Source: Azolla caroliniana (taxonomy: Eukaryota; Plantae; Polypodiophyta). Taken from it: a stretch of DNA of 64,000 nt. The stretch spans positions 7,812,001 to 7,876,000 of the forward strand of contig JBHGNT010000022.1 of the NCBI GenBank assembly GCA_043228905.1, read 5' to 3'. Of this stretch, positions 1 through 41,400 are shown one piece after another (the first letter of the stretch is position 1; each line of letters starts with the position of its first letter). The notes below the pieces were generated by a model. It had not been told where the DNA came from. It worked only from the letters and a program-made list of their open reading frames with translations, and did no database searches. The position numbers were made by a program, and so were the translations under genes.

Positions 1-3000
1 AGTACCCAAAGAGCAGCCATTGAAAGGGGAGGCTAAGTTAATTAGGCCTCAATTAGTTTCAGTCAAAGTATTTCACATAGCATTCATAGCTTCTGCAACT
101 CAATCATGTATTTCGTTTAATTGGTTTTAAATTATGTTTTCACTAGCCATGAACATGAAAGTTAATATGAAAGTGCAGCCCAAGGATATGAGTAGCTATG
201 GTAGGCAAGAATACACACAGAAAAATGTATCTACAAACATCTATTCTTTTGAAAATGTTGTAGTCTTCTCTTTTCAATATTCTCTTTTTAGTTCTAGTCT
301 TAGTATGAATTTAAGTTCTAGTCTTGCTTAGTTTATTAGTAATTGAGTACCCAAAGAGCAGCCATTGAAAGGGGAGGCTAATTTAATTAGGCCTCAATTA
401 GTTTCAGTCAAAGTATTTCACATAGCATTCATAGCTTCTGCAACTCAATCATGTATTTCGTTTAATTGGTTTTAAATTATGTTTTCACTAGCCATGAACA
501 TGAAAGTTAATATGAAAGTGCAGCCCAAGGATATGAGTAGCTATGGTAGGCAAGAATACACACAGAAAAATGTATCTACAAACATCTATTCTTTTGAAAA
601 TGTTGTAGTCTTCTCTTTTCAATATTCTCTTTTCAGTTCTAGTCTTAGTATGAATGTAAGTTCTAGTCTTGGTTAGTTTATTAGTAATTGAGTACCCAAA
701 GAGCAGCCATTAAAAGCGGAGGCTAATTCAATTAAGCTTCAATTAGTTTCAGTTAGAGTATTTCACATGGCATTAATAGTTTGTGCAGCTCAATCATGTA
801 TTTCGCTAAATTGGTTTTAAATTATGTTTTTCACTTGCCATGAACATGAAGGTTAATATGAAAGTGCAGCCCAAGGATATGAGTAGTTATCGTAGGACCG
901 AATACACACAGAAAAATGTATCTACAAACATCTATTCTTTTGAAAATGTTGTCGTCTTCTCTTTTCAATATTCTCTTTTCAGTTCTAGTCTGAGTATGAA
1001 TTTAAATTCTAGTCTTGGTTGGTTTATTAGTAATTGAGTACCCAAAGAACAGCCATTGAAAGGGGAAGCTAATTCAGTTAAGCTTCAATTAGTTTCAGTT
1101 AGAGTATTTCACATGGCATTAATATTTTGTGCAGCTCAATCATGTATTTCGCTAAATTGGTTTTAAATTATGTTTTTCACTTGCCATGAACATGAAGGTT
1201 AATATGAAAGTGCAACCCAAGGATATGAGTAGCTATGGTAGGCGAGAATACACACAGAAAAATGTATCTACAAACATCTATTCTTTTGAAAATGTTGTCG
1301 TCTTCTCTTTTCAATATTCTCTTTTCAGTTCTAGTCTTAGTATGAGTTTTACTTCTAGTCTTGGTTAGTTTATTAGTAATTGAGTACCCAAAGAGAAGCC
1401 ATTAAAAGGGGAGGCTAATTCAATTAAGCTTCAATTAGTTTTAGTTAGAGTATTTTAAATGGCATTCATAGCTTGTGGAGCTCAATCATGTATTTCGTTT
1501 AATTGGTTTTAAATTATGTTTTCACTAGCCATGAACATTCAGGTTAATATGAAAGTGCACCCCAAGGATATGATTAGCTATGGTAGGCAAGAATACTCAC
1601 AGAAAAATGTATCTAGCAACATCTATTCTTTTGAAAATGTTGTAGTCTTCTCTTTTCAATATTCTCTTTTTAGTTCTAGTCTTAGTATGAATTTAAGTTC
1701 TAGTCTTGCTTAGTTTATTAGTAATTGAGTACCCAAAGAGCAGCCATTGAAAGGGGAGGCTAAGTTAATTAGGCCTCAATTAGTTTCAGTCAAAGTATTT
1801 CACATAGCATTCATAGCTTCTGCAACTCAATCATGTATTTCGTTTAATTGGTTTTAAATTATGTTTTCACTAGCCATGAACATGAAAGTTAATATGAAAG
1901 TGCAGCCCAAGGATATGAGTAGCTATGGTAGGCAAGAATACACACAGAAAAATGTATCTACAAACATCTATTCTTTTGAAAATGTTGTAGTCTTCTCTTT
2001 TCAATATTCTCTTTTTAGTTCTAGTCTTAGTATGAATTTAAGTTCTAGTCTTGCTTAGTTTATTAGTAATTGAGTACCCAAAGAGCAGCCATTGAAAGGG
2101 GAGGCTAATTTAATTAGGCCTCAATTAGTTTCAGTCAAAGTATTTCACATAGCATTCATAGCTTCTGCAACTCAATCATGTATTTCGTTTAATTGGTTTT
2201 AAATTATGTTTTCACTAGCCATGAACATGAAAGTTAATATGAAAGTGCAGCCCAAGGATATGAGTAGCTATGGTAGGCAAGAATACACACAGAAAAATGT
2301 ATCTACAAACATCTATTCTTTTGAAAATGTTGTAGTCTTCTCTTTTCAATATTCTCTTTTCAGTTCTAGTCTTAGTATGAATGTAAGTTCTAGTCTTGGT
2401 TAGTTTATTAGTAATTGAGTACCCAAAGAGCAGCCATTAAAAGCGGAGGCTAATTCAATTAAGCTTCAATTAGTTTCAGTTAGAGTATTTCACATGGCAT
2501 TAATAGTTTGTGCAGCTCAATCATGTATTTCGCTAAATTGGTTTTAAATTATGTTTTTCACTTGCCATGAACATGAAGGTTAATATGAAAGTGCAGCCCA
2601 AGGATATGAGTAGTTATCGTAGGACCGAATACACACAGAAAAATGTATCTACAAACATCTATTCTTTTGAAAATGTTGTCGTCTTCTCTTTTCAATATTC
2701 TCTTTTCAGTTCTAGTCTGAGTATGAATTTAAATTCTAGTCTTGGTTGGTTTATTAGTAATTGAGTACCCAAAGAACAGCCATTGAAAGGGGAAGCTAAT
2801 TCAGTTAAGCTTCAATTAGTTTCAGTTAGAGTATTTCACATGGCATTAATATTTTGTGCAGCTCAATCATGTATTTCGCTAAATTGGTTTTAAATTATGT
2901 TTTTCACTTGCCATGAACATGAAGGTTAATATGAAAGTGCAACCCAAGGATATGAGTAGCTATGGTAGGCGAGAATACACACAGAAAAATGTATCTACAA

Positions 3001-5782
3001 ACATCTATTCTTTTGAAAATGTTGTCGTCTTCTCTTTTCAATATTCTCTTTTCAGTTCTAGTCTTAGTATGAGTTTTACTTCTAGTCTTGGTTAGTTTAT
3101 TAGTAATTGAGTACCCAAAGAGAAGCCATTAAAAGGGGAGGCTAATTCAATTAAGCTTCAATTAGTTTTAGTTAGAGTATTTTAAATGGCATTCATAGCT
3201 TGTGGAGCTCAATCATGTATTTCGTTTAATTGGTTTTAAATTATGTTTTCACTAGCCATGAACATTCAGGTTAATATGAAAGTGCACCCCAAGGATATGA
3301 TTAGCTATGGTAGGCAAGAATACTCACAGAAAAATGTATCTAGCAACATCTATTCTTTTGAAAATGTTGTAGTCTTCTCTTTTCAATATTCTCTTTTTAG
3401 TTCTAGTCTTAGTATGAATTTAAGTTCTAGTCTTGCTTAGTTTATTAGTAATTGAGTACCCAAAGAGCAGCCATTGAAAGGGGAGGCTAAGTTAATTAGG
3501 CCTCAATTAGTTTCAGTCAAAGTATTTCACATAGCATTCATAGCTTCTGCAACTCAATCATGTATTTCGTTTAATTGGTTTTAAATTATGTTTTCACTAG
3601 CCATGAACATGAAAGTTAATATGAAAGTGCAGCCCAAGGATATGAGTAGCTATGGTAGGCAAGAATACACACAGAAAAATGTATCTACAAACATCTATTC
3701 TTTTGAAAATGTTGTAGTCTTCTCTTTTCAATATTCTCTTTTTAGTTCTAGTCTTAGTATGAATTTAAGTTCTAGTCTTGCTTAGTTTATTAGTAATTGA
3801 GTACCCAAAGAGCAGCCATTGAAAGGGGAGGCTAATTTAATTAGGCCTCAATTAGTTTCAGTCAAAGTATTTCACATAGCATTCATAGCTTCTGCAACTC
3901 AATCATGTATTTCGTTTAATTGGTTTTAAATTATGTTTTCACTAGCCATGAACATGAAAGTTAATATGAAAGTGCAGCCCAAGGATATGAGTAGCTATGG
4001 TAGGCAAGAATACACACAGAAAAATGTATCTACAAACATCTATTCTTTTGAAAATGTTGTAGTCTTCTCTTTTCAATATTCTCTTTTCAGTTCTAGTCTT
4101 AGTATGAATGTAAGTTCTAGTCTTGGTTAGTTTATTAGTAATTCAGTACCCAAAGAGCAGCCATTGAAAGCGGAGGCTAATTCAATTAAGCTTCAATTAG
4201 TTTCAGTTAGAGTATTTCACATGGCATTAATAGTTTGTGCAGCTCAATCATGTATTTCGCTAAATTGGTTTTAAATTATGTTTTTCACTTGCCATGAACA
4301 TGAAGGTTAATATGAAAGTGCAGCCCAAGGATATGAGTAGCTATGGTAGGACAGAATACACACAGAAAAATGTATCTACAAACATCTATTCTTTTGAAAA
4401 TGTTGTCGTCTTCTCTTTTCAATATTCTCGTTTCAGTTCTAGTCTTATTATGAATTTAAGTTCTAGTCTTGGTTAGTTTATTAGTAATTGAGTACCCAGA
4501 GAGCAGCCATTGAAAGGGGAGGCTAATTTAATTAAGCTTCAATTAGTTTCAGTCAGAGTATTTGACATAGCATTAATAGCTTCTGCAGCTCAATCATATA
4601 TTTCGTTTAATTGGTTTTAAATTATGGTTTCACTAGCCATGAACATGAAGGTTAATATGAAAGTGCAGCCCAAGGATATGAGTAGCTATGGTAGGCAAAA
4701 TACACACAGAAAAATGTATCTACAAATATCTATTCTATTGAAAATGTTGTAGTCTTCTCTTTTCAATTTTCTCTTTTCAGTTCTAGTCTTAGTATGAATT
4801 TAAGTTCTAGTCTTGGTTAGTTTATTAGTAATTGAGTACCCAAAGAGCAGCCATTGAAAGGGAAGGCTAATTCAATTAAGCTTCAATTAGTTTCTGTTAG
4901 AGTATTTAACATGCCATTCATAGCTTGTGCAGCTCAATCATGAATTTCGCTAAATTGGTTTTAAATTATGTTTTTCACTTGCCATGAACATGTAGGTTAA
5001 TATGAAAGTGCAACCCAAGGATATGAGTAGCTATGGTAGGCGAGAATACACACAGAAAAATGTATCTACAAACATCTATTCTTTTGAAAATGTTGTAGTC
5101 TTCTCTTTTCAATATTCTCTTTTCAGTTCTAGTCTTAGTATGAATGTAAGTTCTAGTCTTGGTTAGTTTATTAGTAATTGAGTACCCAAAGAGCAGCCAT
5201 GGAAAGGGGAGGTTAATTCAGTTAAGCTTCAATTAGTTTCAGTTAGAGTATTTCACATGGCATTCATAGCTTGTGCAGCCCAATCATGTATTTCGCTAAA
5301 TTGGTTTTAAATTATGTTTTCCACTTGCCATGAACATGAAGGTTAATATGAAAGTGCAGCCCAAGGATATGAGTAGCTATGGTAGGCAAGAATACACAGA
5401 GAAAAATGTATCTACAAATATTTATTCTTTTCAAAATGTTGTAGTCTTCTCTTTTCAATATTGTTTTTTCAGTTCTAGTCTTAGTATGAATTTAAGTTCT
5501 AGTCTTGGTTAGTTTATTAGTAATTGAGTACCCAAAGAGCAGCCATTGGAAGGGGAGGGTAATTCAATTAAGCTTCAATTAGTTTCAGTTAGAGTATTTC
5601 ACATGGCATTCATAGCTTGTGCATCTCAATCATGTATTTCGTTTAATTGGTTTTAAATTATGTTTTCACCAGCCATGAACATGAAGGTTAATATGAAAGT
5701 GGAGCCCAAGGATATGAGTAGCTATGGTAGGCAAGAATACACATAGGAAAATGTATCTACAAACATCTATTCTTTTGAAAAT
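1..5782. repeat. 345/346-bp satellite array (~16.7 monomers, runs off the left edge) with a 5-monomer 1727-bp higher-order repeat
   Basis: Monomer start AGTACCCAAAGAGCAGCCATT recurs at 1, 346, 691, 1037, 1383, 1728 etc. Identical ORF-track variants recur at +1727 (134/1861/3588; 479/2206/3933; 840/2567; 1186/2913; 1516/3243). Confidence 0.98.
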
Positions 5783-5895
5783 CTATTGAAAACTGTATAA
5801 GATGTAGTATGTATCACATATTAATAGACCCACTAATTTAGTATTTTCTAAATATCTATATTCTATTGATTTGTAGAACATAAAGACTTAGGAAA

Positions 5896-8641
5896 ATGCC
5901 CGCTATTAAGAACAAATATTGGGATATCTATTGTTTCAATGTCACAAGAAGTTAGAGAGGAAATAGAAGTTGTAATTGTAAATTTTGCAACAAACATATG
6001 GACGGGTCAGCAACACGAATGATTGCTCATTTAATCGGAAAACCTAGCCATGGAGTAACGAAATGTATCAATGTTCCCAAGGAATTCTTGATTGACCTCA
6101 CATCTTTATATGGTAATTGTGGAACTCAAACAATTGGTGGAGAAGAAGATATAGTTGCCTGAACAAGGTATTGACAAGAGCCTACATTAGGTGTCATCAT
6201 TAATAATGGCCAAATAATTGTAAATGATTTATCTTGAAATGTTTTCTCTTTTAGGTGTTTCTACCTCAAGCTCATGTACCTTTGTTGGGGAAAGTGAAAG
6301 CATGTCATGTATGGGTGGTGGTAGTCACCAACCATATTCACCAGCAATGATAACGAAACAACAATCATTGCGTAAAGGACATGTGTTACAAATGCAAAGG
6401 AAACAACATGCAAATGTTACGAACGTGAGATGTATCATTGAAGCAAATTTGTCATTTAATCTACTAAAGAAACCATGTTGGCGGAACATGTTAGAAGCTT
6501 TCTCTACAATTGGAGAGAAACATAGTGGAGTCACATATAATTACATGAGGACGAAAGGCTTGAAAAATGAGGTTATATCCTTGCAAGGAAAGTTAGAAAG
6601 GGTAAGAGGATTATGGCCCAAGTATGGTTGTTCTATACTAACAGATGGATGGGTTGATGTTTCTCATAGGCAACTTGTAAATGTCCTCGTATCATCTTGG
6701 TATGGGACAATGTTCCTCAAGTCCATTGATTGCAGCCATGCTAATACAACACCAATAGCTAATAGCTCTTGGTTAGCTGAAAGAATTTCAGAGGCAATTA
6801 GAGAGGTTGGTAAGGAAAATGTGGTCCAAGTCATTTCAGACAATGCATCTAGTTGTGTCTGCATGGGGTCTTTGCTAGAATCAGAGTTCCCTAATATTGT
6901 TTGGACTCCATGTGCAACACATTCTTTGGATCTGCTTTTGGAGGACATTGGTCAGTTGCCTTGGATGAAAAGTATTATGATGGAAGCAAATACTATTGTA
7001 TGTTTTTTTTGCAAGAAGAGGAATGCTAGGAAATTTTTTTCGGCTCACAGTAACCTCGCCATCTTGAGACCTTCCAAGACAAGGTTTGGTGTGATGTATC
7101 TTGTCGTACAACGTTTGCTCAAAGTTTGGCATCCTCTTGAGCAAATAGTGGTGAGTGACATGTGGAGGTCTTGGTTAGATTGCAATAAGCCAGATGCAAT
7201 GAATGTAAAGAACTACATCCTTGGTCCTACTACTGAGTCCTCGTTTCAAGTTGTTTTGACCCTAATGGCACCATTGTATAGTGTTTTACGACTTACTGAT
7301 AGGGAGGGATCCACTATTGGATTGTTATATGAGTTTATGCGAAGAAGCAAAGATATTTTAGCAAAAGGAGTGGAAGAAAACATCCCCCACAAATCCAAGT
7401 AAGTTTCATATTTATTTTAATTTGTTATGGTTTCCTAAAATTAAACCTTCAATTGTTTGTTCATGTTTTAAGATTGATTCATTTGTAAAACCCTTTTAGG
7501 TATGAGGATGTTTTGAAGTTATTTGCTATACGATGGAAATGGTTCAAGAGGCCAATCCACCTTGTAGCTCATTTGTTACATCCGATATGGAGAGAGGAGG
7601 CTACATTTATTAACCCTGAGTTAATGGATGCATGGATGAGTTATGTGGAAAAATTGTACTCGACACTTGAATGTGATATCTTATTTCGTGAATTGCATGA
7701 ATATCGGAATGGTACAGGGACATTTAGTTATGCATTAGCACGTGAGGAGAGATCTATGATGACGCCAGTCACTTGGTGGGAAAATTTTGGTGGAAGAACT
7801 CCAAAGCTCCAAGCATTAGTTGTTCGCATATTATCCCAAGTGTCAAGTGTTGAAAAAATGATCAATTTTATAGTTAAGTTCTGAAATAGTTCACTTTTGT
7901 GTACTACATTTTATTTCATATTTTACTTTTTATTAGGATTGCTCTTCTGGGGCAGCGGAAAGGAATTGGAATGCACATGCTCTCGCACATACAAAAAATA
8001 GAAACAGACTAAAGGTAGCACAACTTGAACAATTGGTATATGTGCGAGAGAACTTACGACTAGTTCGCAAGTTTGAGACTGTGAATGCATCTCCAATGCA
8101 GGTATTGTTTTATTCATTCTTTTTATAATTTATATTCCTCAATATTCTTAAGTACTAATAATTAGTTTCTGCCATCGACACACTAGTTTGTGATACTTAG
8201 AAGTTAAAGCTTTTATAAACTTGTTTGCAGGTGAATCCAAATGAGATAGATGTCTCTAAGACTCCTGATATTCCATCTATTAGCCATGAAAATGATATGG
8301 ATAGAGAATTCTATGAAACTTATTTTCAAGAAACAATGAGCTTGAGAAGAAGGACAAGGAGCATGACAACATCACATATGACAACATCAAGCGATGGAGT
8401 CCCTACTAATCGAATACGAAGGCAAAGGCCAAGAAGAGATGATGAGCGGTCTTCTTATAATAGGAGAATAACACGATCAAGTACATTTGCTTCTTTACCA
8501 CTAGAAGATCAAGATAATGTCAATGCAATAGAAGAAGCAGTTCATACTAATTATGATGATCTTATGGACGAAGAACAAGTGTTGATGTCATCAACTAACA
8601 CAAAATCTGATGATGAAGATGGTGATGAGGACCAGATCTGA
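5896..8641 (+). mobile_element. hAT-superfamily transposase gene (BED finger + DUF659-type core + hATC dimerisation domain), 5 exons; exon 1 disrupted
   Basis: ATG 5896; BED-like W..CKFC..H..C with an in-frame TAG and a frameshift. GT-AG introns ~6168-6254, 7399-7499, 7840-7936, 8102-8230 join the ORFs in frame. Motifs ILTDGW, VISDNA, CATH, WWENFG and (after splicing) SQDCSSGAAERNW. Confidence 0.9.
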
Positions 8642-8879: not shown

Positions 8880-9150
8880 ATGCATTCTATTTCTTTGACC
8901 AAATGCAATGTGAGGGTATCTCAATGAATGGAATCACATTGGTGGGTCTATTGAAAGCTTGTTCCAATGTAGGATCTCTAGCCAAGTGTAAAGAAATTCA
9001 TGTCGAGGTTGCAAAGAAAGGGTTAGAAATAGAAGCTCTTGTGGTGCATTAAATGAAGCACAAGAAATGTTTGAGAGAAATTTGGTTCGAGATATAGTTT
9101 CATGGAGATCACTCATGGCGGGAATCGGGATATGCTGAACATGGACATAA
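8880..9150 (+). pseudogene. PLS-class PPR pseudogene fragment, 5' part (interrupted by the element at 9151)
   Basis: Hand translation gives FFDQMQCEGIS..ITLVGLLKACSNVGSL..KEIHVEVAKKGLE and EAQEMFE..RDIVSWRSLMAG..YAEHGH, typical PPR L/S/P motifs, with frameshifts. Confidence 0.8.
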
Positions 9151-10439
9151 TGTCATGATATGGCAAGACACGAACCCATGACCTTATGGTATATGGGTCG
9201 AGCTCTTAACCATCACACCATCTATTGTAATTCATAGGATATTATTTTCATTTATGTTTTACTATAAGAAAGTAATGTATATTCCAAATTTCTCTGGAAC
9301 ATTCTAGAAGTTTCAGGATTACTCCTGACAACACTATAAAAGAAGGCACTAGGCGTTATGTTGAACCAAATTGGTTCAACGCCAGTCTTAAGCCTCTCAG
9401 TCGCTTGTACTTATCTTTTCACATAAAATATTAGCTGTTGTCATCATCTTTCTCTCTCTCATCCTCGCTATCTCTCTCCTCTTCTCACTTCCTCTCTCGG
9501 GAATCTTACGCAATCCCGTCCTCTTAGTACTAATAGTACTTCTCTTCTTAGTACTAATTCCATCTCTGCTTTAGTGCTATTCCTGACATGGCAAGACTCG
9601 AACCCATGACCTTATGGTATATGGGTCGAGCTCTTAACCATCACACCATCTATTGTAATTCATAGGTTTTTTTTTATTTTTTATGTTTTATTATAAGAAA
9701 GTAATGTATATTCCAGATTTCTCTGAAACATTCTAGAAGTTTCAGGATTACTCCTGACAACACTATAAAAGAAGGCACTAGGTGTTATGTTGAACCAAAT
9801 TGGTTCAACGCCAATCTTAAGCCTCTCAGCCGCTTGTACTTATCTTTTCACATAATATATTTAGCTATTGTCATCGTCTTTCTCTCTCTCATCCTCGCTA
9901 TCTCTCTTTCTCTCTCGGGAATCTTACGCAGTCCCGTCCTCTTAGTACTAATAGTACTTCTCTTCTTAGTACTAATTCCATCTCTGCTTTAGTGCTATTC
10001 CTGACATGGCAAGACTCGAACCCATGACCTTATGGTATATGGGTCAAGCTCTTAACCATCACACCATCTATTGTAATTCATAAGATATTTTTTTTTTTAT
10101 GTTTTATTATAAGAAAGTAATGTATATTCCAGATTTCTCTGGAACATTCTAGAAGTTTCAGGATTACTCTTGACAACACTATAAAAGAAGGCACTAGGTG
10201 TTATGTTGAACCAAATTGGTTCAACGCCAGTCTTAAGCCTCTCAGCCGCTTGTAGTTATCTTTTCACATAATATATTAGCTATTGTCATCATCTTTCTCT
10301 CTCTCATCCTCGCTATCTCTCTCTCTCTCCTCTTCTCACTTCCTCTCTCGGGAATCTTACGCAGTCCCGTCCTCTTAGTACTAATAGTACTTCTCTTCTT
10401 AGTACTAATTCAATCTCTGCTTTAGTACTATTCCTGACA
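9151..10439 (+). repeat. Three head-to-tail LTR copies (9151-9588, 9589-10006, 10007-10439)
   Basis: Each unit ends TATTCCTGACA and contains TATAAAAG and the GTTGAACCAAATTGGTTCAAC palindrome. Confidence 0.95.
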
Positions 10440-10453
10440 GTTTGAACCAATTT
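10440..10453 (+). promoter_or_regulatory. Primer-binding site complementary to the LTR's own predicted +1 region (self-priming type)
   Basis: TTGAACCAATTT (10442-10453) follows the LTR end after GT and is the reverse complement of AAATTGGTTCAA in each LTR (e.g. 9368-9379). There is no TGG tRNA-type PBS. Confidence 0.8.
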
Positions 10454-10483
10454 TTCCTTTCCTCCTACCCTTTTCCCTATACT

Positions 10484-11552
10484 ATGGCTACTGTTAGCGC
10501 CCAAGAATATGAATCCGTTTTCTCCGAGTTACAATGCCTAAAAGAAAAGTTTGTTGCTCTGGAACAAGAAAACCAACGGTTGATAGGGGATCTGCAACAA
10601 ATCGCTCTCGAAAAACAACAAACGCAACAACAACATGGGGAGTTAGCATTACGGGTACAACAACTCGAAGCAACGTTGCAACTACAAGGATGAAGTCCCC
10701 AAGGATTTCATTTAAGAGCCCAATATTGGACTTCCTGTGAAATTTGATGGAACGCGATCGCAATTCTGGGGATTCCTTAATCAGGTACGCTTAGTCATCC
10801 AGATGCATCCTTCCCGATATCCCACTGATGCGTCTCGAGTCGGCCTAATAGGCACGTTACTTAGCGGCTCTGCCTTGGCATGGTTCGCTCAGCTTCTAGA
10901 AAAACAATCACCCTTGCTTAATAACTTTGAATATTTTATTGGTGAGTTTAAATCCTGCTTTGGAGATACTGACAGCATCAGGACGACGATGAAGAAGATC
11001 CGAAGATTGCGTCAAGGCGATCGTCCAGCCTCTGCCTACGCGGCGGATTTCCATCTACTCGCCTCAGATATTCCCTGGGATGATCAGGCCCTCATGAAGC
11101 AGTTTGGCTACGGCTTGCGCAATGATGTCAAAGATCTGCTTTTAACCTTCCCCGAAGAACCAAAGTCGCTTACGGAGGCAATCAGTCGAGCGGTCTGATG
11201 TGACAACCGCCTTTTCAAACGGCGTTCGGAGCGTCAGTTACAAATACCACGCTCTTGGCCGGAACCCACATACGCCTCAGTAACGGCTAAACCGTTTGCA
11301 CGCGATGTACCTCAAGCCAATATTCCGACACCGATGGAGATCGACACCATGCGTCAACACGGCCCGTTATCGGAAGAAGAAAAGCAACGACGACGTGCCA
11401 ATCGATTATCTCTTTATTGCGGTGGACCAAGGCATATCGCCATCAATTGTCCCCATAGGCCAAGAAGACAGGTAAATCAAATCATCGCTTGTACTAAAAC
11501 CGAGTCTATTCTTCCCTTCGGAGTGTCTGATAGTATTAATAGTACTAATAGA
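10484..11552 (+). pseudogene. gag: Degenerate Ty3/Gypsy gag (capsid + CCHC knuckle relic)
   Basis: KFDGTRSQFWGFLNQVRL..SRVGLIGTLLSGSALAWF..LRQGDRPASAYAADF; PMEID; RLSLYCGGPRHIAINCP; several stops. Confidence 0.9.
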
Positions 11553-11553
11553 C

Positions 11554-11997
11554 TGTCAGGAATAGTACTAAAGCAGAGATGGAATTAGTACTAAGAAGAG
11601 AAGTACTATTAGTACTAAGAGGACGGGATTGCGTAAGATTCCCGAGAGAGGAATTGAGAAGAGGAGAGAGAGAGAGATAGCGAGGATGAGAGAGAGAAAG
11701 ATGATGACAACAGCTAATATATTATTTGAAAAGATAAGTACAAGCGGCTGAGAGGCTTAAGACTGGCGTTGAACCAATTTGGTTCAACATAACGCCTAGT
11801 GCCTTCTTTTATAGTGTTGTCAGGAGTAATCCTGAAACTTCTAGAATGTTCCAGAGAAATCTGGAATATACATTACTTTCTTATAATAAAACATAAATGA
11901 AAATAATATCCTATGAATTACAATAGATGGTGTGATGGTTAAGAGCTCGACCCATATACCATAAGGTCATGGGTTCGAGTCTTGCCATATCATGACA
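11554..11997 (-). repeat. Inverted copy of the 9151 LTR
   Basis: TGTCAGGAATAGTACT...CATATCATGACA is the full-length reverse complement of the LTR. Confidence 0.95.
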
Positions 11998-12355
11998 CAT
12001 AATAAGGACTCAAGAGGCATTGGATTGCTTTGAAAAGATGAGGAAACATTGTTGCCTCTTGCCACATGCATTTTCATTGTCTTGTGGGTTGAAAGCTTGT
12101 GGAAGCTTGAGAGATAGACAAAAAGACCGAGAAATACATGCCGACATCGTCAAAATAGGTTTTGAAAAAGATGTCCTTGTTGATAACACAATAGTCAACA
12201 TGTATGTGAATGGTGGGTTATTGTCGATTGCGCACTACTTGTTTAACACTCTAGTGGTGTGAGATGTGGTTTCACTAAACTCATTGATGGTAAGAAATGC
12301 CAAACAAGGGCATAACAAGGAGCCTATTTTTTGTTTTGAGGAGATGGTTTCAAAA
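11998..12355 (+). pseudogene. PLS-class PPR pseudogene fragment, 3' part
   Basis: EALDCFEKM..FSLSCGLKACGSL..REIHADIVKIGFEKDVLVDNTIVNMY..A.YLFN..DVVSLNSLM (ORF 12020..12262). Confidence 0.85.
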
Positions 12356-27340: not shown

Positions 27341-28333
27341 ATTCATACGTCTGGTTCTCATGCAGGGAATCCATCTCGTCCTGCATGGCATTCAACCACG
27401 TGCGGCTGTGGGTGTCCTCCTTTGCTTCTTCGAAGCTTTCCAGCTCCCCCTCATCGGTCAGCAACACGCGCTCTGCATCCGGAAATCTCTGGGGGGGCCT
27501 TCTCTCTCAAAGAGAATATCTGTGTCTTTGTTTCCGACAACCGGCTCCTCAGTTTGTTCTTCATCCGAATCCAATTCGGGATCTTGGCCGGTTACGATTC
27601 CTGCTTCCTCTTCTTCTTCTATTGGTTCGGTGTCCTCTCCGTAACCGGTTGGTTCTTCGAGTTTCAACCGACTCTTAGCCGGGTAGGTCCGTATTTCATC
27701 GAATCGGTCCTTTTCGGTCGACTCGGAGTTCATTATCTTCTTCTCCGACTCCCAATCGTCAAGAGTCTTGTCCTCCATGAAGATAATATCTCGACTCCGG
27801 AAAACCTTCTTGTCGACCGGATCCCGCACTCAGTAGCCGAACTCATCATCGTCGTATCCGAGGAATATGTTGTCAAGACTGAGAGAGAGAAAGAGAGAGA
27901 AAAAGAGATCGAGAGATAATTGAAAGAGAATTATTATATTGAAGTGTAAAATGGATTACAAAGAGTAGGCTACAAAATGGCGTTGAACCAATTTAGGTTT
28001 AGGATGGGTGGTAGATCCCTATTAATAAGTAATAGAGAACACTCTAGAATATTCTAGGTTATCCTAGAATATAGAGTAATCTAGAAGATCTCTATAGTAT
28101 TCTAGAAGGTTCTTGTGGTATAGAACACTCTAGAATATTCTAGGTTATTCTAGAATGTAGAGTAATATAGAATATTCCTATGATATTAGATTTCATATTC
28201 TAGGGACTATACATATAAGAATATTAATACAATGGTTAAGGATTTGACATGTGTACAACAAGGTTGTGGGTTTAAATCCTTTCGAGTCATAATGTGAGTG
28301 TCATGATCCTTTCGATGCATGATGTGAGTCTTA

Positions 28334-28579
28334 TCATGACACTATCCCCCTTCTTTGACGACACGTTTCACGGGTTGTAGGGTTTGTATTCGGACCTGGT
28401 TTACAAGGATATTGGCGATGAAATGCATTGACGAGTTCTGCAACATTGGAAAGATTTGCAGCAAGTTCCCAAGTTCGATCATTGGGGGTATAGCCTAGCC
28501 AATCGACTAGGTAATACAACTTTTTGTGCACGATTTTAGAATCGAGAACGGCAGCAACTTCAAATTCAGGCCCGTCCAA
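28334..28579 (-). pseudogene. Integrase C-terminal chromodomain
   Basis: EFEVAAVLDSKIVHKKLYYLVDWLGYTPNDRTWE..NL, with aromatic-cage positions F, W, Y present. Confidence 0.9.
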
Positions 28580-28978
28580 GAACTCGACAGGTGGTGGGGG
28601 TGTCGTATGACGGCTCGAATTGAACTTGTAGTATAAGGTTCCAAAAGGGATACATGAAACACCGGATGAAGATGCATGTGCGGAGGGAGGTCAAGACGAA
28701 ATGCAACATCACTTATCTTACCAGTGATCATGTAAGGGCCAAAACGTTGGTAATCCAATTTACTGCAAGGTCGAGAGGTCTTGATGTTGTGTTGGAGAAG
28801 CCATACATGATCCCCAATGCGGAACTTTTTTGAGGAGTCTAGACAATGATGATCGGCAAGCCTCTTGTCTATAAATTGAGCATCGTGCAAATTGTGGATA
28901 ATGTTAGCTTGAATTTCTTGGAGGCGGCTAAGAAGATCCTCGGCAGCAGGGTTGGTAGGAACTTCTGGATGTGCATTC

Positions 28979-29689
28979 TGACAGGAACAACACGCTTCGA
29001 TGAACACCGCTCGGCCACAACCAAGCTTAGAATCAAACACAGAAAACAGGGAATGAAAAACACGACACAAAGGAGAGAAGAGTACACATGATGTTTAACG
29101 TGGAAAACCATGAGAGGGAAAAACCATGGGAGTCCATAGACTCCAAACTATCACTATATCACAATGATTAAAATAGTGAGCTCACGGAGGCAACGACCTC
29201 TTCCTCTCTCTCTCTCTCTCTCTGTACACTGTTACGCGCTCTCTAGTCTTGCGCCAACAAGAATGACAATAACACTTTACTAAGTTTGCCCTAAGTCATA
29301 TTTATACTAATATGACTTTTTGGCTATTTACAAATATAGCTCCGATGGACTCTTAGAAAACATATTTACGAATATGTCCCTTCATCCAGTGAGCACTTCT
29401 CACCGGGCCTTCACCATCCGGCTGTTGCCGGGTACTCCTCATCCGGTTCTCACCGGGCCTTCACCATTCGGCTCTTGCCGGGGACTCCTCATCCGGTTCT
29501 CACCGGGCCTTCACCATCCGGCTCTTGCCAGGGACTCCTCATCTGGTTCTCACCGGGCTTTCACCATCCGGCTCTTGCCGGGTACTCCTCATCCGGTTCT
29601 CACCTGGCCTTCACCATCCGGCTCTTGCTGAGTTTGCTCATCAATACTGTTCTTCTCACTTCCCATCCGGAGGGACCTTTTTCCTAACA
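28979..29689 (-). mobile_element. Solo LTR (Copia C-related family), TSD CATTC, inside the chromovirus integrase
   Basis: TG..CA ends; CATTC at 28974-28978 and 29690-29694; shares TGGAAAAC..GGAAAAACCA and CCCATCCG..GGGACC..TCCTAACA with 33325-33899. Confidence 0.92.
29396..29628. repeat. 50-bp tandem repeat (~4.7 copies) in the solo-LTR U3
   Basis: CACCGGGCCTTCACCATCCGG (with variants) at 29401, 29451, 29501, 29551, 29601. Confidence 0.92.
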
Positions 29690-32600
29690 CATTCATCGTC
29701 CACCAAGGATGACAGCCCGTATTTGCGAAAAATGGGGAATATACTGTAGAAGAATGGGCTGAGTTGTTGTAAGAGAATTCCGCCAAGTGCAAAAAATCAA
29801 CCCAATCATCTTCTTGATAGTTGATGAAACAACGAAGATATTGTTCCAATGTCTGGTTGGTACGCTCTGTTTGGCCATTTGTTTCAGGATGATAGCCCGA
29901 AGAAAGCTTAACTGAAATGTGGAGAAGTTTGAACAGGTGCTTCCAAAACTTTGAGATGAACTGTGGACCATGATCACTAATAATATCATCAGGCATACCA
30001 TGATGCTTAAATACCTCCCGCATAACGAGATCAACCACCTCTTGACTAGTAATCGACTTTGTACATGGCAAGAAATGTCCATAGCGTGTGCGGAAAGCTG
30101 TGTTCCATTCATCCCCCGGGCGAATCCGAACTAGATTATATGCTCTACGAAGGTCCAACTTCGTGAAATATTTTGCACCATTGAGACGTTCCAAAAGATT
30201 CGGGATTAATGGTAGAGCATATTTATTCCGGATAGTCACTTTGTTTAGCCCTCGATAATCCACGACCAACCGAAGAGTCCCATTCTTCTTCTTAACGAAG
30301 AAGATAGGTGCACCAGCAGGGGATCTAGAATGCTGAATGAATCCATTTACCAAATTCTCATCAATATATTCCCGCAAAGTCTATAGCTCTACAGGGGAGA
30401 GATTATAAATTGGGCCACATGGAGGTTCTTTCCTTGGTTGTAAGTCAATAGGGCAGTCGTATGGCCGATGCTCCAGCAATGTATTGGCCTTCACCTTATC
30501 AAAGACATCTGAAAACTCCTTCTATTTCTCTGGTAGTTTAATGTCCGCTTCACATGAAGTAGATGATGGAGTTGCAATTATTGTGAAGACGAACATGGCC
30601 TCGTTCCCCCCTTCCTCCCGCAACTGTCGTAAAGAGATGCGCGATAACTCTGGGGGATCTATTATCACATGTAGGAGAGAGGGATGCGGGGTTTGTGCTT
30701 TTTTCCCGGGTCTCCTCAATTGTTCTTTTCATCCAATCAAGTGAGTCGAGTTTTTTCAGCACAAGTCGAGCTTTGTAGCCTACTCTTTGTAATCCATTTT
30801 ACGCTTCAATATAATAATTCTCTTTCAATTATCTCTCTATCTCTTTTTCTCTCTCTTTCTCTCTCTCAGTCTTGACAGTTTGAACCAATTTAGGTTTGGG
30901 ATGGGTGGTAGATCCCTATTTATAAGTAATAGAGAACACTCTAGAATATTCTAGGTTATCCTAGAATGTAGAGTAATCTAGAAGATCTCTAGAGTATTCT
31001 AGAAGGTTCTAGTGGTATAGAACACTCTAGAATATTCTAGGTCATTCTAGAATGTAGAGTAATATAGAATATTCCTATGATATTAGATTTCATATTCTAG
31101 AGACTATACATATAAGAATATTAATACAATGGTTAAGGATTTGACATGTGTACAACAAGGTCGTGGGTTCAAATCCTTTCGAGTCATAATGTGAGTGTCA
31201 TGATCCTTTCGATGCATGATGTGAGTGATATCATGACATATGCAAGGCTGGGACTTTGGGTCCAACTTTGCTCTCCGGTCCTTTGCCACATGCACGTAAG
31301 TGAGACACCCGAAAACCTTCAGATGCCGGTAAGACACTTCATTACCGGTCCACACTCTCTACGGCGTGTCTCTGTCCAAGGGCACTGAGGGTGATCTGTG
31401 TATCACGTACGTCGCTGTCAGCAGTGCCTCAGCCCAAAACGTCTTGGGTAACTTTGCATGTGCTAGCATACTCCGGACCCTCTCCATTATGGTCTGGTTC
31501 ATCCTCTGGACCAGCCCATTTAGTTCCGGCGTCTTCGGCATGGTAAATTTGAGCCGGATGCCCTTCGAGCGGCAGTACTCCTGGAAATGCCCCCGCCCGA
31601 TATTCTCCTCCGTTATCTGCTCGAACCGCCTTCAGCTTCCAACCGGTTTTTCTTTCCACTCTCGCGTGGAGCTCCTTGAAAACAGATAACACCTGATCCT
31701 TCGTCTTCAGCAGTGTGGCCCACAGCTTCCAGTTGTGGTCATCTATGAACGTCACGAAGTACTCGATCCGGCATGTGACTTCATGTCCACTGGACACACA
31801 TCGGTATGCACCAACTCTAGTGGTACATTATGTCTCATTGGTGGCCTTGATTGGAAGGAGGTCTGGTTTTTCTCATCGGCCAGGCAGTCGGTGCACTTCT
31901 CAAGGTGCACGTCTTTCACCGGAATGAGGTTGTCATCAACAAGCCTCTTCATCCCCTTCTCATTCATGTGACACATTCTCTTGTGCCACAACTCACCCGC
32001 AATGTCGGATGCAACGTTCACTTCTTTTCAGGATAATCGGGCATTCATTAGGCACAGTGTGTTGACTTTCCGGGCCTGAGCCACTATTAGGCTCCCTTTT
32101 GCAGAACTTCATGACACTGTTCCAGATGCTACCTATGTAGCCTTGATCATCTAGTTGACCGGTTGATATCAGGTTCAGTCGAACCTCCGGAACATGTCGG
32201 ACATCCTTCAGCAGCAACTTGCATCCGGTTGATGTCGTCAACAACACATCTCCTATGCCGATAATTCGGCATGTCCCTTCATTCCTCATCCGGACACAGC
32301 CGTGCTCACCGGCTGTGTACGATGAGAAGCATTTCCGGTCCAGGGTCAGGTGGAACGACACTCCGGAATCGACAACCCACGTTGTCTCGTCGCCGGCAAT
32401 GTTCAACTCACTCTCCTCGGTGATGAGCATCAACTCTTCTTCACTTGCCGCGATTGTTGTCGTTCCCTTTCAGTCCGGTCCCCTCCGATCTTTACCGTTC
32501 CGGTCCGGTGACCGCTTCGAATTAGTACTGTCGGTTTCCTTGTCTTTTCGGAAGTGCCGACAGTTCCTCTAGAAGTGTCCTAGCTTGCCACAATAGAAGC

Positions 32601-35139
32601 AAGTAGGCCTCCCCCTTGACTTTGACCGTGTCCCCGACTTTTCCTGGTTCTGGGGACTACGGTTCCTTTGTCTTCCGCATTCCGATTCGGTAAGGAGCGC
32701 TTTGGAGTCGGAGATCATATCTTTGTCTTTCTGACGCGCCTCCTCATCTAGCAAGCTCAACTTGACTCTTGCTAGGGATAACTGTTTTCCTTCCAGCCCG
32801 GCGTTACCCAAAGTGACAACTAATGTCTCCCAGCTATCCGGGAGGGAACCGAGCAGGAGTAGTGCTAGTACCTGATCGGCTAGAGGTACTTCCAACGATG
32901 TTGCCTGGTGAATCAGCCCCTGGAAGGCATTCATGTGCTTTGCCATACTGGAGCCTTCTTGGTACCGGAGCCTCACTAGCTTCCGAAATACCGAAACCCG
33001 ATTAACAACATTTTTGTTCTGAAACATAATGCCGATCTTCTCCCAGAGTTCATGAGCCTTGCTCTCCTCATTGAAGTTGTTGTACAGGCTCATGTCGATG
33101 AAGCACCAGATGTAAGGTGTTGTCTTCATGTGCATAACCTCCCACACTGTGGCGTCGATCTTGTCTAGTCTTTTGTCCCCGAACTGAGCCGGCAACCAAA
33201 GATCTTTCACAACGAGCATGTCCCTCATCTTCGACTTCCACATTGAGTAGTTGGTGCCGGTGAGCTTGAACATGCCTCCCAACGAATCTTCCATTTTCTG
33301 TGTCGTTTCACTCTAATACCAGTTTGTAGAGAATATGCAGAATAATCTTCGGCCACAATTGAGACTTAGATCACTTAATGATAATTAAACACAGAAGAAA
33401 TGAGAAATGGAAGTAAGTACAGAAACAGAAGAGAATGCACAGGATGTTAACATGGAAAACCCTAAACGGGAAAAACCACGAGAGCCCACAGACTCCAAAC
33501 TATCACTATGTCGAGAGGAATACAACAGGTAAACATGGAGGCAGCGACCTCGTACTCACACTCTTCTTCTGGCGGTGGTTACAACAGAGACTTACTCTAT
33601 TTCTCTCTCTCTCTCTCTCTGTTACGCTCTGTATAGCAGTTACACTCAATAACTCTATACAAAATAATGACAACACACACAGTTACTATTTGCCCTAGGT
33701 CATATTTATACTAATATGACTTTCGGGCTAATTACAAATATAGCCCTTGTGGGCTCTTTGGAACATATTTACATATATGTCCCTTCATCCGATGAGATGT
33801 TCTCATCGGGCCTGCAACATCCGGTTCTCATCGGGCCTTCATCATCTGATTCTCACCGGCCCTTCATCATCCCATCCGAAAGGGACCGAAATCCTAACAT
33901 TAGGATTCATGTCTACCATGCGAAGTTGAAACATATTGAGGTGTGGTTTCATCATATCCGAGAGCTTGTAACAGAGAAGAAGCTTGAAGTCGGGAAGGTC
34001 GACATCAAGATGAGCATCGTTGATTTCTTGACGAAATCAGTCCCATATCAACGCTTCAGAGCATAGAGGTTAATGAGGGGATTAAGACAAGCGACAGAGT
34101 AGAAGAGAGTTGAACAAACAATCGTAGCAAGTAAGTCGATGACCAACTCGATTGGATAAACCGAAGAAGCAAAGTCCAAAGAATCGGAAAGGCAAAAGGC
34201 TAAGGACATAGCCTAGTGCGAGGATGTCAAATGGAAAGAAAACGATCGACGGACGAGCAAAGCCAAAGATAGATCGAGGATCCAACGGGGAGGACAAGAG
34301 CCAGCCGATCAAAACGAACGAGCCGATTTGGATGCAAGACAATTCAAATCCACACGATCCAATTGACCTAATCCTGCCGAACTAGGCTAGATTCTGACTT
34401 TACCTCTACAGACTCGGTGGAATGTTGACTACCTTGTATGTATACAATTGTAACTTTAGATCAAAACTGTAATCTAGGTTCACGGGGGAGATAACCCCAA
34501 TTATTTGTATACATAGGAAGAGTAGACCTTTTAGGGGGGAGTTTGTTGGTATAACAGGCTAACTCCTTCCACTTTGTATACTTAATGTAAACACATCTTC
34601 GAGTTAGGGGTTCTGTATATATATAAGCCCAACTGTAACATTGTGTGAGAGAGTGTTTTTTCATAAGAGAATAAACAGAGTCTCCATTAGAGCTTAACTA
34701 TGTCTATCCTACCTTCTATTTTCTATTTTCATTCATATTCTGTCTGTGTTGTTTGTTGCACACATTTTCTATAGGTCCTCACATATTCTTCTGCACATCA
34801 TATTCTATAATATATTCTATATTGAAGTACATATTTAAACACATCACTTATCATGTGTCTCTTTTTTGCTATTTAAGAATTTTCGCAAGACCAATATCTA
34901 CTACCAATCAAACAACATTTTGGGTGTCCTAAAAGCTCGTAAAAACATGCCTTCTCTAGACATTGGGACAAAGAATTAGGGTGATTACAGAGAGAGCCAG
35001 AGATATGTGCGATAATTTAGATATAATAAGGGTTTCTATGTAGATTTAAATCAATTCCCATAGATTTTGTGGAGATAAGAAATTTGGATGGTTGTCTACC
35101 ACCTCCAATGTGGCTCAATCGCGTTAACTCTTAGTGTTT

Positions 35140-36546: not shown

Positions 36547-38102
36547 ATGGAAGGGGTGTTGGCGCATCATGGACGAGCACGACAACCGCATGTCCTCCTT
36601 TTGCCGTTCCCGGCACAAGGTCACATAAACCCTCTTATCGATTTAGGGGAACGATTGGCCGCTTCGGGCATATTGTCTACACTTGTCCTCCCACGGGGCA
36701 TGTTGTCCAAGGGGCTCGTAGTCCCCGAGAAGCATCTCCTCATCCGCTTCGCGACCCTCGACCTCCCGTCGGAGATTGACGCGAAGCTGTCATCGGGAGA
36801 CCAATCGTGGGAGATGTTTGAGATTGTCGACACCGAGATCCTCGGCCCTCTTAGGACCTTCATGACCGCTTATCGTGCCACCAATTCAGGTGCCAGTGCC
36901 ATTGTAGGTGAGCAGCACCTTGAGATTCTGCCGCCCATTTCTTGCCTCATTTCGGACAGCTTCATGCCCTGGACCGTGGAACTGGCCTGCGAGATGGGCG
37001 TCCCGAGGGTCGAAATGTGGACCGCCTCCGCCACCGCCTACGTCTTCGGCTGTTCCATACTACCACTCATCTCAAAGGGCCTCTTACCCTTCATTCAAGG
37101 TACATTCTCTCTCTCTCTCTCACACACACACTCTCTCTCTCACTCCCTGCATGTCTCCTCATTACTGATTCTTCTCCAACAGGTACACAGGACATTGTGC
37201 TTGACTTTCTGCCTGGCATCTCCACCTCCCGATTGGGTAACGTGCCTGTAGAAACCCTGAAAACAAAGGATCTTACACACCCATTCTTTCAAATCATCGT
37301 TCAATCCTTCTTGCGTGGCGCCGAATCTCAGCGAGTCCTCGTGAACTCTTTTGACGGGGTCGAGGCCGGCGCAATGGAGGCATTGAGAGCAAAGAATGTG
37401 AAGATGACCCCCATTGGCCCAACATTTGGGGTAGGACATAAGAAGGACAGCCCTAGCCTTTTGGATGAGGCTCAATCCAAATGCTTGCAGTGGCTTGATA
37501 AGCAAGCACCCAAATCGGTAGTGTATGTGGCCTTCGGGTCAGCCGGATTCTTGTCGAGGGAGGAGATGCGGGAGTTAGTGGCCGCATTGGAGGCGTTCGG
37601 GAGGCCGTTTTTGTGGGCGATTCGCGATGGCTCCGCCACCGAATCGCTCCCCGTGAGTTTCCGCGCCGGTAACCTTCCTACCGAGAAAGGCCTCATAGTG
37701 TCGTGGGCACCCCAGAGGCATGTATTGGAACATGGATCGGTGGGAGCTTTCGTGAGCCATTGTGGGTGGAATTCCCTGTTGGAGAGTATTTGGAACGGTG
37801 TTCCTGTCGTGGGGTGCCCTCGCATGGCGGAACAAAACACCAACATGTGGCTTGCCCAAGAATGGGGCATTGGGGTGGCGGGTGTGGACACGATGATGGG
37901 CGGCATAGGGAGCCTACGTAGCACCACCCTCGTAAATGCGTTGCAACGTGTAATGGGAACGGTAGGTGTCGACGACGAATCCTTAACTCAGGTTAAATTG
38001 AGGAAGAAGGTGGTTGAGATGGCGGCGATTGCACGTGCTGCCATTTCGCCCTCCGGAACCTCCACCCTGGCATTCCAAGAGTTTGTGGATGAACTCCTTT
38101 GA
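36547..38102 (+). CDS. UGT: Family-1 UDP-glycosyltransferase, 490 aa; exons 36547-37099 and 37183-38102
   Basis: HVLLLPFPAQGHINP (catalytic His), LISDSF (Asp), CLQWLDKQAPKSVVYVAFGS, full PSPG box WAPQRHVLEHGSVGAFVSHCGWNSLLESIWNGVPVVGCPRMAEQ. An 83-bp phase-1 GT-AG intron joins the two ORFs without stops. Confidence 0.95.
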
Positions 38103-39870: not shown

Positions 39871-41400
39871 TAAATCAAACCATTTTTGACATAAATTCAT
39901 ATGTATGTTGTCTAAAACAGATCCATAGATTTTAGATAATAAACAGAACCAAAGATTAGACATAATAAACATAACCAAAGATTACACATAATAAACAAAA
40001 CTAGATATTAGTACCAAGGACAAGAAAACATAAATTTACACCGCATTTTTAATGCTTTTTGAAGAAAGATTAGACATAAACGACACAATGCAGTTACTAG
40101 AGTCTCTGGAACATCATAAGAAACGGAAATTTACACCACATTTTCTAATCATATGGAACATTGTTCTCAACTTTTCTGTTGAGGTGAGATAACCCCTAAT
40201 GTTGACTTGATGCCCAACTGAAAACTGTGCACCATACACCTTAACATATGTGAGGGAGCCAAAATTTCCTTACCATGTTCATTTTGTAACAACATGCTAA
40301 ACTCCTTTGCAATTGCTTGTGCATCACTAGCTCCATAAAAAGTTGTTGCTAATAATCGATTGGAAATCGAACTCGACAAAAGAGAGCATGTGCACAATGT
40401 TTCCATGATCCAACACCTGGAAATACATGCACAAAATCCAATATCATTGATCTCGAGCCCTAGGGCCTAAATTTGACAGGTTAATATTAAAGTTTTTTGA
40501 CGACCATTTTTTAAAGATGTATGTCATATGCCATAATAGTGCAAAAACTAACAAGTCATTTGACTAACAAATTTTTAAAATGAAAGGCCTATATAATGCA
40601 ATAAATATTGTTACCCATTTCATCACTATCAAAAGTATGCAAAGATAGACAAATTAGCATAATTATATTACAAAGCTAATGAGACCCATAAAATAAATAT
40701 CATGTTAATGTTTTTTAAGCCAAAGCACAAACAAGCTATGTATCTATTTTTAGGGTAGTGTAAACTTACATATTATAGTGTAATGTTTTTTTCCAAAAAA
40801 TATAGTGTAAAATTAAATATGTACGCTCACACTATGATATTTACTATCCATGTTTCTTTATTAAACGAAAATTTCTAATAAAAGATAGTAATAAGCATGA
40901 CAGAAATAGGTTTAATAGTTCAAACTAAAAAAAAAAACCTAGAGTCTAGACTCTTAGAATATTTAATAAAGGTTTTTCCGTAAATTAAATTTTAAGTTAC
41001 TTTTTTTTTCCAAAAATAAGTTTCAACCAACATTTTTAGTAAAGAATAAAGATTTAAGAATATTGTCATATATGTATGACGTGGCAATTCTTGAACCAAA
41101 CTGATAGTTTGCCAAGATTGATAAAACGGTTAAAGAATGAAACGGATGTAATAGAATACTATAAATAGAAGTACAAACCTGAGGCTAAGGACAGGCTATT
41201 TTGGGGAGAAACAATTCTGTGTATTTTACATTGGTGGAGACGACGGGAGATCAACCACCGGCCACTCTGCACATCGCAACAGCCGCCAAGAAACAGCCGC
41301 CCAGCCACAAATAGAAGAGCCGCCCAGCCACAAATAGAAGAGCCGCCCATAATTGCCCTCACGTTCAGCCCATCAGCCTTCACCACACAAAGTAATCAAA

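What the first reader, a model, noticed from the sequence alone, without database searches (positions are those of the whole stretch)
9335..10453. tRNA-independent self-priming signal shared by two chromovirus families
Seen: no TGG PBS; the LTR is followed by GT-TTGAACCAATTT, the exact complement of AAATTGGTTCAA lying 33 nt after the TATA start (9335 to 9368). The otherwise dissimilar LTR of the element at 27871-31238 has the same 12-mer at the same 33-nt spacing (minus strand 30924 to 30891) and the same PBS. Established: S. pombe Tf1 primes with the first 11 nt of its own transcript. Inference: these plant Tcn1-like elements self-prime, and the 12-mer is the transcript 5' end.
Basis: partly seen in the sequence, partly recalled or inferred. 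Interest (0 to 1): 0.8.

Follow-up and report, generated by a model that had tools for sequence, protein, structure and literature searches.

The report
Self-priming chromoviruses with antisense tRNA-derived promoter
These plant jumping genes and dozens of relatives carry, where a tRNA normally docks, 12 letters that match their own end-repeat and change in step with it, so they likely start DNA copying with the front of their own RNA (already predicted in print for plant relatives of yeast Tf1); their end-repeats also keep a backwards tRNA-like segment that is predicted to be an RNA polymerase III promoter.

Summary
The 12-nt LTR/PBS complementarity is real in element A. In element B the PBS is not in place: its 5' LTR is inverted at the 12-mer, but a family-B relative (95% RT identity) has the same PBS. 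In 37 copies anchored by position, 28 pair 12/12; eight perfect primer/PBS variants differ at seven positions (171/180 matched cells, permutation maximum 156). The primer starts 31-33 nt after TATA, always at an A. RT groups with fungal and vertebrate Tf1/sushi-type elements. Self-priming is well supported but not new: REXdb predicts it for 83% of 1500 Tcn1 elements, and this scan noted it before in two moss-type genomes. Corrections: the two LTRs are homologous, the identical 12-mer looks convergent, and Tf1's side duplexes were not supported. Added finding: U3 carries a conserved antisense tRNA-derived A/B-box cassette (31 of 37 anchored copies; absent in an outgroup), not found in my literature searches for coding chromoviruses. 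Both window elements are rearranged at the priming site. No RNA data; start site, cleavage and Pol III activity are inferred.

The parts
9146..9150 (+). Element A left target-site duplication CATAA
9151..9588 (+). Element A LTR copy 1 (TATA 9335; 12-mer 9368-9379)
9589..10006 (+). Element A tandem LTR copy 2, lacks first 10 nt (12-mer 9797-9808)
10007..10439 (+). Element A tandem LTR copy 3, the one next to the PBS (TATA 10180)
10213..10224 (+). Predicted self-primer AAATTGGTTCAA (predicted RNA nt 1-12), preceded by C and followed by conserved C(A/G)CCAGTC
10440..10441 (+). GT spacer between LTR end and PBS, conserved in relatives
10442..10453 (+). Self-priming PBS TTGAACCAATTT
10484..11551 (+). 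gag of element A, broken (frameshift near 10693-10716, stop at 11196-11198); no pol follows
11552..11997 (-). Inverted LTR plus the GT dinucleotide (11552-11553) without PBS, joined to the end of gag
11998..12002 (+). Element A right target-site duplication CATAA
9167..9213 (-). Antisense tRNA-derived A box...B box cassette in LTR copy 1 (also 9595-9641 and 10013-10059 on minus)
11935..11981 (+). Same cassette in the inverted LTR (A box 11935-11943, B box 11972-11981)
30892..31238 (-). Element B 5' U3 (TATA 30924); left TSD GCATA 31239-31243; inserted in a copia integrase region
31129..31175 (+). Antisense A/B-box cassette of element B 5' LTR (also 28232-28278 in the 3' LTR)
30880..30891 (-). 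Element B 12-mer at the inversion breakpoint
30772..30879 (+). Inverted R-U5 plus GT of element B (reads R-U5-GT-PBS on the + strand); stops 6 nt short of the 12-mer
30727..30771 (+). 45-nt inverted piece from the gag/pol boundary; about 14-nt overlap with the forward pol segment that follows
28346..30726 (-). Deleted pol of element B: RT piece 30506-30072, integrase piece, unrelated insert about 29700-28985, SH3 and chromodomain (28567-28400)
27871..28341 (-). Element B intact 3' LTR (12-mer 27994-27983), preceded by a polypurine tract; right TSD ACATA 27866-27870

Best explanation
Elements A and B are rearranged copies of two related chromodomain-bearing Ty3/gypsy families whose 12-nt primer-binding site is complementary to, and covaries with, a 12-mer in their own LTR, so they likely prime reverse transcription Tf1-style with the predicted first 12 nt of their own RNA. 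Steps: (1, inferred) Pol II starts at the A 32-33 nt after TATA; (2, shown as sequence complementarity, predicted as a fold) RNA nt 1-12 pair with the PBS; (3, inferred from Tf1) the element's RNase H cuts after nt 12, at the conserved C(A/G)CCAGTC / GACAGT junction, freeing the primer; (4, inferred) minus-strand DNA begins with AC, and the matching GT is the dinucleotide integrase trims. Primer and PBS change together, by selection or because the PBS is re-copied from the primer each cycle. The clade also keeps a tRNA-derived A/B-box cassette, antisense, in the first ~100 nt of U3 (shown); I predict it binds TFIIIC and acts as an outward-facing Pol III promoter set back-to-back with the Pol II promoter (untested, about 0.5).
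For: Position-anchored test without using the PBS: 28 of 37 copies pair 12/12, 32 of 37 with G-U; pairing extends beyond 12 in 1 of 37 (5') and 0 of 37 (3'); 15 distinct pairs give 171/180 matched cells against permutation mean 133.7, max 156 in 20,000. At least 17 paired changes at 7 positions on a FastTree gag tree. TATA-to-primer distance 32 (21), 33 (15), 31 (1); +1 is A in 37 of 37, -1 a pyrimidine in 36 of 37, the YR rule of PMC2094075. Window leader folds with the 12-bp duplex, z -5.75. RT groups with fungal and vertebrate elements, 98% SH-aLRT, apart from angiosperm and algal elements; chromodomain with aromatic residues in place. Control element C has a TGG PBS and only 3-4 nt own-LTR complement. 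Cassette: a matrix from LTR segments ranks annotated phage tRNAs in 19 of its top 20 hits, at offset 11-15, against 0-5 for 10 column-shuffled matrices; boxes 0.86/0.83 conserved against 0.53 in the spacer; G18-G53 spacing 35-36 in 25 of 25 rows.
Against: No RNA evidence of start site, cleavage or expression. The TATA anchor was part of my search rule (43-46 nt window), so the spacing is partly built in; 17 of 54 loci with a junction gave no anchored primer site, several because the contig lacks the LTR. 9 of 37 copies mismatch, 5 not rescued by G-U. Tf1's two side duplexes were not supported (1752, 6298, 3616, 9540 of 20,000 permutations as good). Two PBS variants, including the window's, have 10-nt complements in one or more of 42 non-host tRNAs, and the host tRNA set was not available. 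The relatives come mostly from one set of metagenome assemblies and contigs of repeats may be chimeric. The RT tree is the quick search, without bootstrap and without a named Tcn1 reference. The cassette has no conserved fold and ARAGORN/Rfam do not call it.
Confidence: 0.88

Rival explanations
1. Self-primed, but the primer comes from the 3' R copy or from a second RNA molecule rather than from the 5' end of the same RNA.
For: The 12-mer is in both R copies; side duplexes that would hold a cis fold were not supported.
Against: Primer start coincides with the expected Pol II start and pairing does not extend into U3; in 15 of 28 distinct U3/R junctions the 3' copy can be tied up in a local hairpin with U3 (no covariation). 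Cis versus trans was not tested.
Confidence: 0.07
2. A host tRNA fragment ending in the T arm primes, and the LTR match is incidental.
For: TTGAACC complements the GGTTCAA of T loops; 10-nt complements for 2 of 8 PBS variants among 42 phage/locus tRNAs; half-tRNA priming exists in plant copia lineages.
Against: The other 6 variants match only 5-7 nt; the two 10-nt matches would need cuts at different tRNA positions (my reading of T-arm register); it gives no reason for the LTR 12-mer to change in step with the PBS.
Confidence: 0.03
3. The inverted repeat is kept alike by recombination or template switching in DNA and has no priming role.
For: Element B did rearrange at this very repeat.
Against: Fixed 12-nt length, fixed GT offset, absence of any TGG PBS in the loci listed and membership of a group where self-priming is proven in Tf1.
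Confidence: 0.02
4. For the cassette only: a dead SINE or tRNA relic inherited with the LTR, or a TFIIIC-binding barrier that is not transcribed.
For: No fold; decayed in 2 of 25 rows in leave-family-out scoring; B box mutated in B's 3' LTR and A's first LTR; no T4 terminator within the LTR in the four window contexts checked (first at 96-477 nt).
Against: Boxes and spacing are conserved while spacer and flanks drift, out to L075 (gag 50% identical, not in the training set; 26.6 bits). Keeping the A box as well as the B box fits a promoter better than a B-box-only barrier (recalled knowledge).
Confidence: 0.45

Closest known systems
Plant Tcn1-clade chromoviruses (REXdb, Neumann et al. 2019, PMC6317226; passages and Additional file 5 read; Additional files 1 and 3 too large to read)
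   Same: Chromodomain with aromatic cage, 5-bp TSD, overlapping gag/pol frames (L006), PBS complementary to own LTR within 0-5 nt of the LTR end; self-priming predicted for 83% of 1500 elements.
   Different: Reported from mosses and club-mosses; host here undetermined. The passages read give no covariation analysis and no tRNA-derived U3 cassette. No named Tcn1 RT was on hand for the tree. Novikova 2010 (PMC2864245; section 6 and passages) found no priming signal in SM-Tcn1.
Tf1/Tf2 (S. pombe), Tj1, Tosmo1-3: Tf1/sushi group (passages of PMC7175516, PMC4600332 and bioRxiv 2022.12.06.519325; primary Levin papers not held)
   Same: PBS pairs with the predicted RNA 5' end; chromovirus pol.
   Different: 12-nt rather than 11-nt primer (10 nt in L064/L070); the three-duplex 'pretzel' is not supported here beyond a conserved 3-bp GTC/GAC contact; cleavage untested.
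Helenus / Cassandra / Ajax (TRIMp3; Kojima 2024, PMC10886601; abstract, passages and Discussion read)
   Same: tRNA-derived A and B boxes conserved inside an LTR, no tRNA fold.
   Different: Those are non-coding miniature elements primed by tRNA, proposed to be transcribed from the Pol III promoter; here coding elements with a TATA promoter carry the cassette antisense, so it cannot make the genomic RNA. The paper notes in passing that 'not a few' Repbase LTRs resemble tRNA, without describing them in the parts read.

Membership tests
Tf1/sushi-type self-priming chromoviruses | Ty3/gypsy domain order PR-RT-RH-IN with C-terminal chromodomain | tested here: met
   Pfam on family-A relative L006 and on element B pieces; element A itself has no pol
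Tf1/sushi-type self-priming chromoviruses | RT groups with fungal and vertebrate chromoviruses | tested here: met
   98% SH-aLRT clade with Ustilago, Berkeleyomyces, frog and fish elements; quick tree; group labels of the named proteins are my inference
Tf1/sushi-type self-priming chromoviruses | PBS complementary to own LTR and not to a tRNA 3' end | tested here: met
Tf1/sushi-type self-priming chromoviruses | Primer sequence is the transcript 5' end | tested here: inconclusive
   Only TATA spacing and YR initiator; no RNA holder listed
Tf1/sushi-type self-priming chromoviruses | Three-duplex pretzel structure around the PBS | tested here: not met
   Side duplexes not better than permutations or shuffles; single families can form them (L075, L025, L064)
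Tf1/sushi-type self-priming chromoviruses | RNase H cleavage releases the primer | not testable with these tools
   Needs biochemistry
Tcn1 clade (REXdb) | RT/RH/INT monophyly with REXdb Tcn1 references | not testable with these tools
   REXdb sequence file too large to read; no named Tcn1 protein among hits
Tcn1 clade (REXdb) | Chromodomain with aromatic cage | tested here: met
   F, W, Y of element B align with F, W, F of CBX3; naming these as the cage is recalled knowledge
Tcn1 clade (REXdb) | 5-bp TSD; host a non-seed plant | tested here: inconclusive
   TSD met; host is a land plant without close named relative (UGT 32-37% to top named plant proteins)
Helenus / TRIMp3 | Non-autonomous miniature element with tRNA PBS | tested here: not met
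   Cassette sits in coding elements with intact gag and pol (L006) and self-type PBS
Helenus / TRIMp3 | tRNA-derived A and B boxes in the LTR | tested here: met
   but antisense to the element

The most novel reading that the evidence does not exclude
A plant clade of protein-coding, self-priming chromoviruses runs two opposed promoters in each LTR: a Pol II promoter whose first 12 nt are the primer, and a captured tRNA-derived Pol III promoter firing antisense that has been kept under selection across the clade, as a self-made chromatin barrier or a source of regulatory antisense RNA; and these elements prime without Tf1's pretzel fold.
Probability: 0.35. Interest if true: 0.68.

Novelty: new variant of a known kind. 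Interest (0 to 1): 0.42.

Why it matters
Self-priming in plant Tcn1-type elements rests in the survey I read on a BLAST complementarity rule. Here a natural series of eight perfectly matched primer/PBS pairs fixes primer length and boundaries and supplies ready-made compensatory alleles, which makes the mechanism directly testable in a plant element. The antisense tRNA-derived cassette, if active, would put thousands of Pol III promoters or TFIIIC sites at insertion borders of a very abundant family and show that small-RNA-gene capture is not confined to miniature elements.

Tried and rejected
No whole genome for the window. Viral-contig scans by pattern and by gag profile found nothing. No RNA holder listed. 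Laying contigs on the B junction left 30837-30872 uncovered because repeats were skipped, so it could not test B's PBS. ARAGORN and Rfam do not call the cassette; a single-family Rfam search on loci was not possible. No consensus fold of the cassette. Pretzel side duplexes not supported. U3/R hairpin present in 15 of 28 junctions but own pairings no better than permuted (2912 of 10,000). Similarity of control element C's LTR to A or B is chance level (86 and 89 of 500 shuffles). No A-type or B-type inversion in any of 78 loci. L069 was dropped as a false junction before the count; L010, L064, L070 were not position-anchored and are outside the 37. Primary Tf1 papers not held. Host lineage not resolved.

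Full report
Observation. Element A spans 9151-11997 between CATAA duplications: three tandem LTRs, GT, TTGAACCAATTT, a broken gag, then an inverted LTR; there is no pol. The 12 nt after GT are the exact complement of AAATTGGTTCAA, 33 nt after the TATA start. None of 20,000 simulated LTRs of the same dinucleotide make-up gave 12 nt. Element B (31238-27871, minus strand, TSD GCATA/ACATA) has the same 12-mer and spacing, but its 5' LTR turns round at the 12-mer: U3, 12-mer, AC, then the reverse complement of U5 and R, a 45-nt inverted piece of the gag/pol boundary, and deleted pol. So B's PBS is not directly in the window. Locus L018, 95% identical to B in RT, has LTR end + GT + TTGAACCAATTT. The LTRs of A and B are homologous, not dissimilar.

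Relatives. A gag alignment (38 of 59 hits plus query used) fetched 78 metagenome loci (best 80 of 324 matches). I examined the 64 with sequence upstream of gag; 54 junctions remained after dropping L069, window element included. The PBS after the GT varies by family. I located the candidate primer without using the PBS, as the 12 nt before a C(A/G)CCAGTC-type motif 43-46 nt after a TATA; 37 of 54 were anchored. Of these 28 pair 12/12, 7 pair 11/12 and 2 pair 10/12; 32 are complete with G-U. Pairing goes past 12 in 1 of 37 on one side and 0 of 37 on the other. The 15 distinct pairs match in 171 of 180 cells against 133.7 (max 156) in 20,000 permutations. A gag tree needs at least 17 paired changes at positions 2-8. 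A and B lie in different sub-clades with ATTCCGGTTCAA families around both, so their identical 12-mer is likely convergent or exchanged. The primer starts with A in 37 of 37, after a pyrimidine in 36, 31-33 nt after TATA (the range is partly set by my rule), in line with the YR rule (PMC2094075, passages).

Clade. RT of B and of family-A loci falls in a 98% SH-aLRT group with Ustilago, Berkeleyomyces, frog and fish elements, apart from angiosperm and algal ones (quick tree, 28 of 120 listed proteins used). The nearest named gag is from the fungus Cetraspora pellucida, 58%. B has a chromodomain. The host is a land plant with no close named relative; a non-seed plant is my inference. No named Tcn1 reference was available, so 'Tcn1-like' is not a tested membership.

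Mechanism. Tf1 pairs its first 11 nt with the PBS and RNase H cuts between 11 and 12 (PMC7175516, passage). The same is inferred here with 12 nt; the window leader folds with that duplex. Tf1 also needs two side duplexes (bioRxiv 2022.12.06.519325, passage); four permutation tests did not support them here, only a 3-bp GTC/GAC contact is conserved. The tRNA-fragment rival has some footing, since two PBS variants match a non-host tRNA over 10 nt, but six match only 5-7 nt and it cannot explain the covariation. Both window elements are broken at the priming site. B reads as if a nascent plus strand ending in the 12-mer had annealed to a PBS and copied GT, U5 and R to 6 nt short of the predicted cut; A's right arm is an LTR with the GT but no primer, joined to gag, and the whole was inserted with two U3 ends and a clean TSD. 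Both fit aberrant cDNAs, but genomic rearrangement is not excluded for B, and no second example was found in 78 loci.

Added finding. Read antisense, the first ~100 nt of U3 hold an A box, the AGGTC-like variable loop and a B box at tRNA spacing (35-36 nt in 25 of 25 rows). A matrix built only from these LTR segments ranks annotated tRNAs of two phages in 19 of its top 20 hits, against 0-5 for shuffled matrices; it scored the eukaryote-type tRNA-Asp in L026 weakly (4.5 bits). With families left out (grouped by eye) 23 of 25 rows still score 22-42 bits, opposite strands below 4; boxes are 0.86 and 0.83 conserved, spacer 0.53. It is present in 31 of 37 anchored copies; three misses are contigs that start within 95 nt of the primer, and L046, L063, L076 are unexplained or truncated. 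It reaches L075 (gag 50%) and is absent from the full LTR of outgroup L064. There is no conserved fold. I predict an outward-facing Pol III promoter or TFIIIC site; this is untested.

Known or new. REXdb predicts self-priming for 83% of 1500 Tcn1 elements (PMC6317226), and this scan has two earlier notes of the same in moss-type genomes. For the cassette, Helenus (PMC10886601) is the nearest, but it is non-coding and tRNA-primed. Searches (listings and abstracts' starts seen) and scan look-ups gave no description of an antisense cassette in coding chromovirus LTRs; subscription journals, Repbase entries and REXdb files 1 and 3 were not seen and may hold one. Verdict: self-priming likely (0.88) and largely anticipated; overall a new variant because of the cassette and the missing side duplexes; interest 0.42.

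Noticed in passing
window 9151-12002: Element A has two U3 ends facing outward, tandem 5' LTRs joined at a TGACA/TGATA near-match, gag only, and a perfect 5-bp TSD: an integrated aberrant cDNA rather than a normal element.
   Followed up: partly
window 9359-9380 (and each A LTR): U3/R junction forms a hairpin (GTTGAACCA...TGGTTCAAC) that could hide the 3' copy of the primer; seen in 15 of 28 distinct junctions, without covariation.
   Followed up: yes
loci L010, L011, L023 and window 10213-10229: Primer sequences themselves resemble a tRNA T loop / B box in two different registers; possibly chance, possibly a clue to the primer's origin.
   Followed up: no
window 41064-45750: Third Ty3/gypsy element, 167-nt LTRs, near-intact gag-pol, ordinary TGG PBS; used as internal control.
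   Followed up: partly
window 1-5900: Tandem array of at least 16 copies of a 345-346-nt unit, next to a DUF659 hAT-type ORF at 6224-7402.
   Followed up: no
window 28985-29700: Unrelated LTR-like insert with 50-nt tandem repeats inside element B's integrase; similar to 29031-29467 vs 33383-33870, the LTR region of the surrounding copia element.
   Followed up: no
L064 and L070: Outgroup family with a 10-nt primer/PBS match, longer TATA distance, the same CACCAGT junction motif and no tRNA cassette.
   Followed up: partly
window 36924-38102: UDP-glycosyltransferase with close relatives only among unnamed metagenome proteins; top named plant hits 32-37%.
   Followed up: partly
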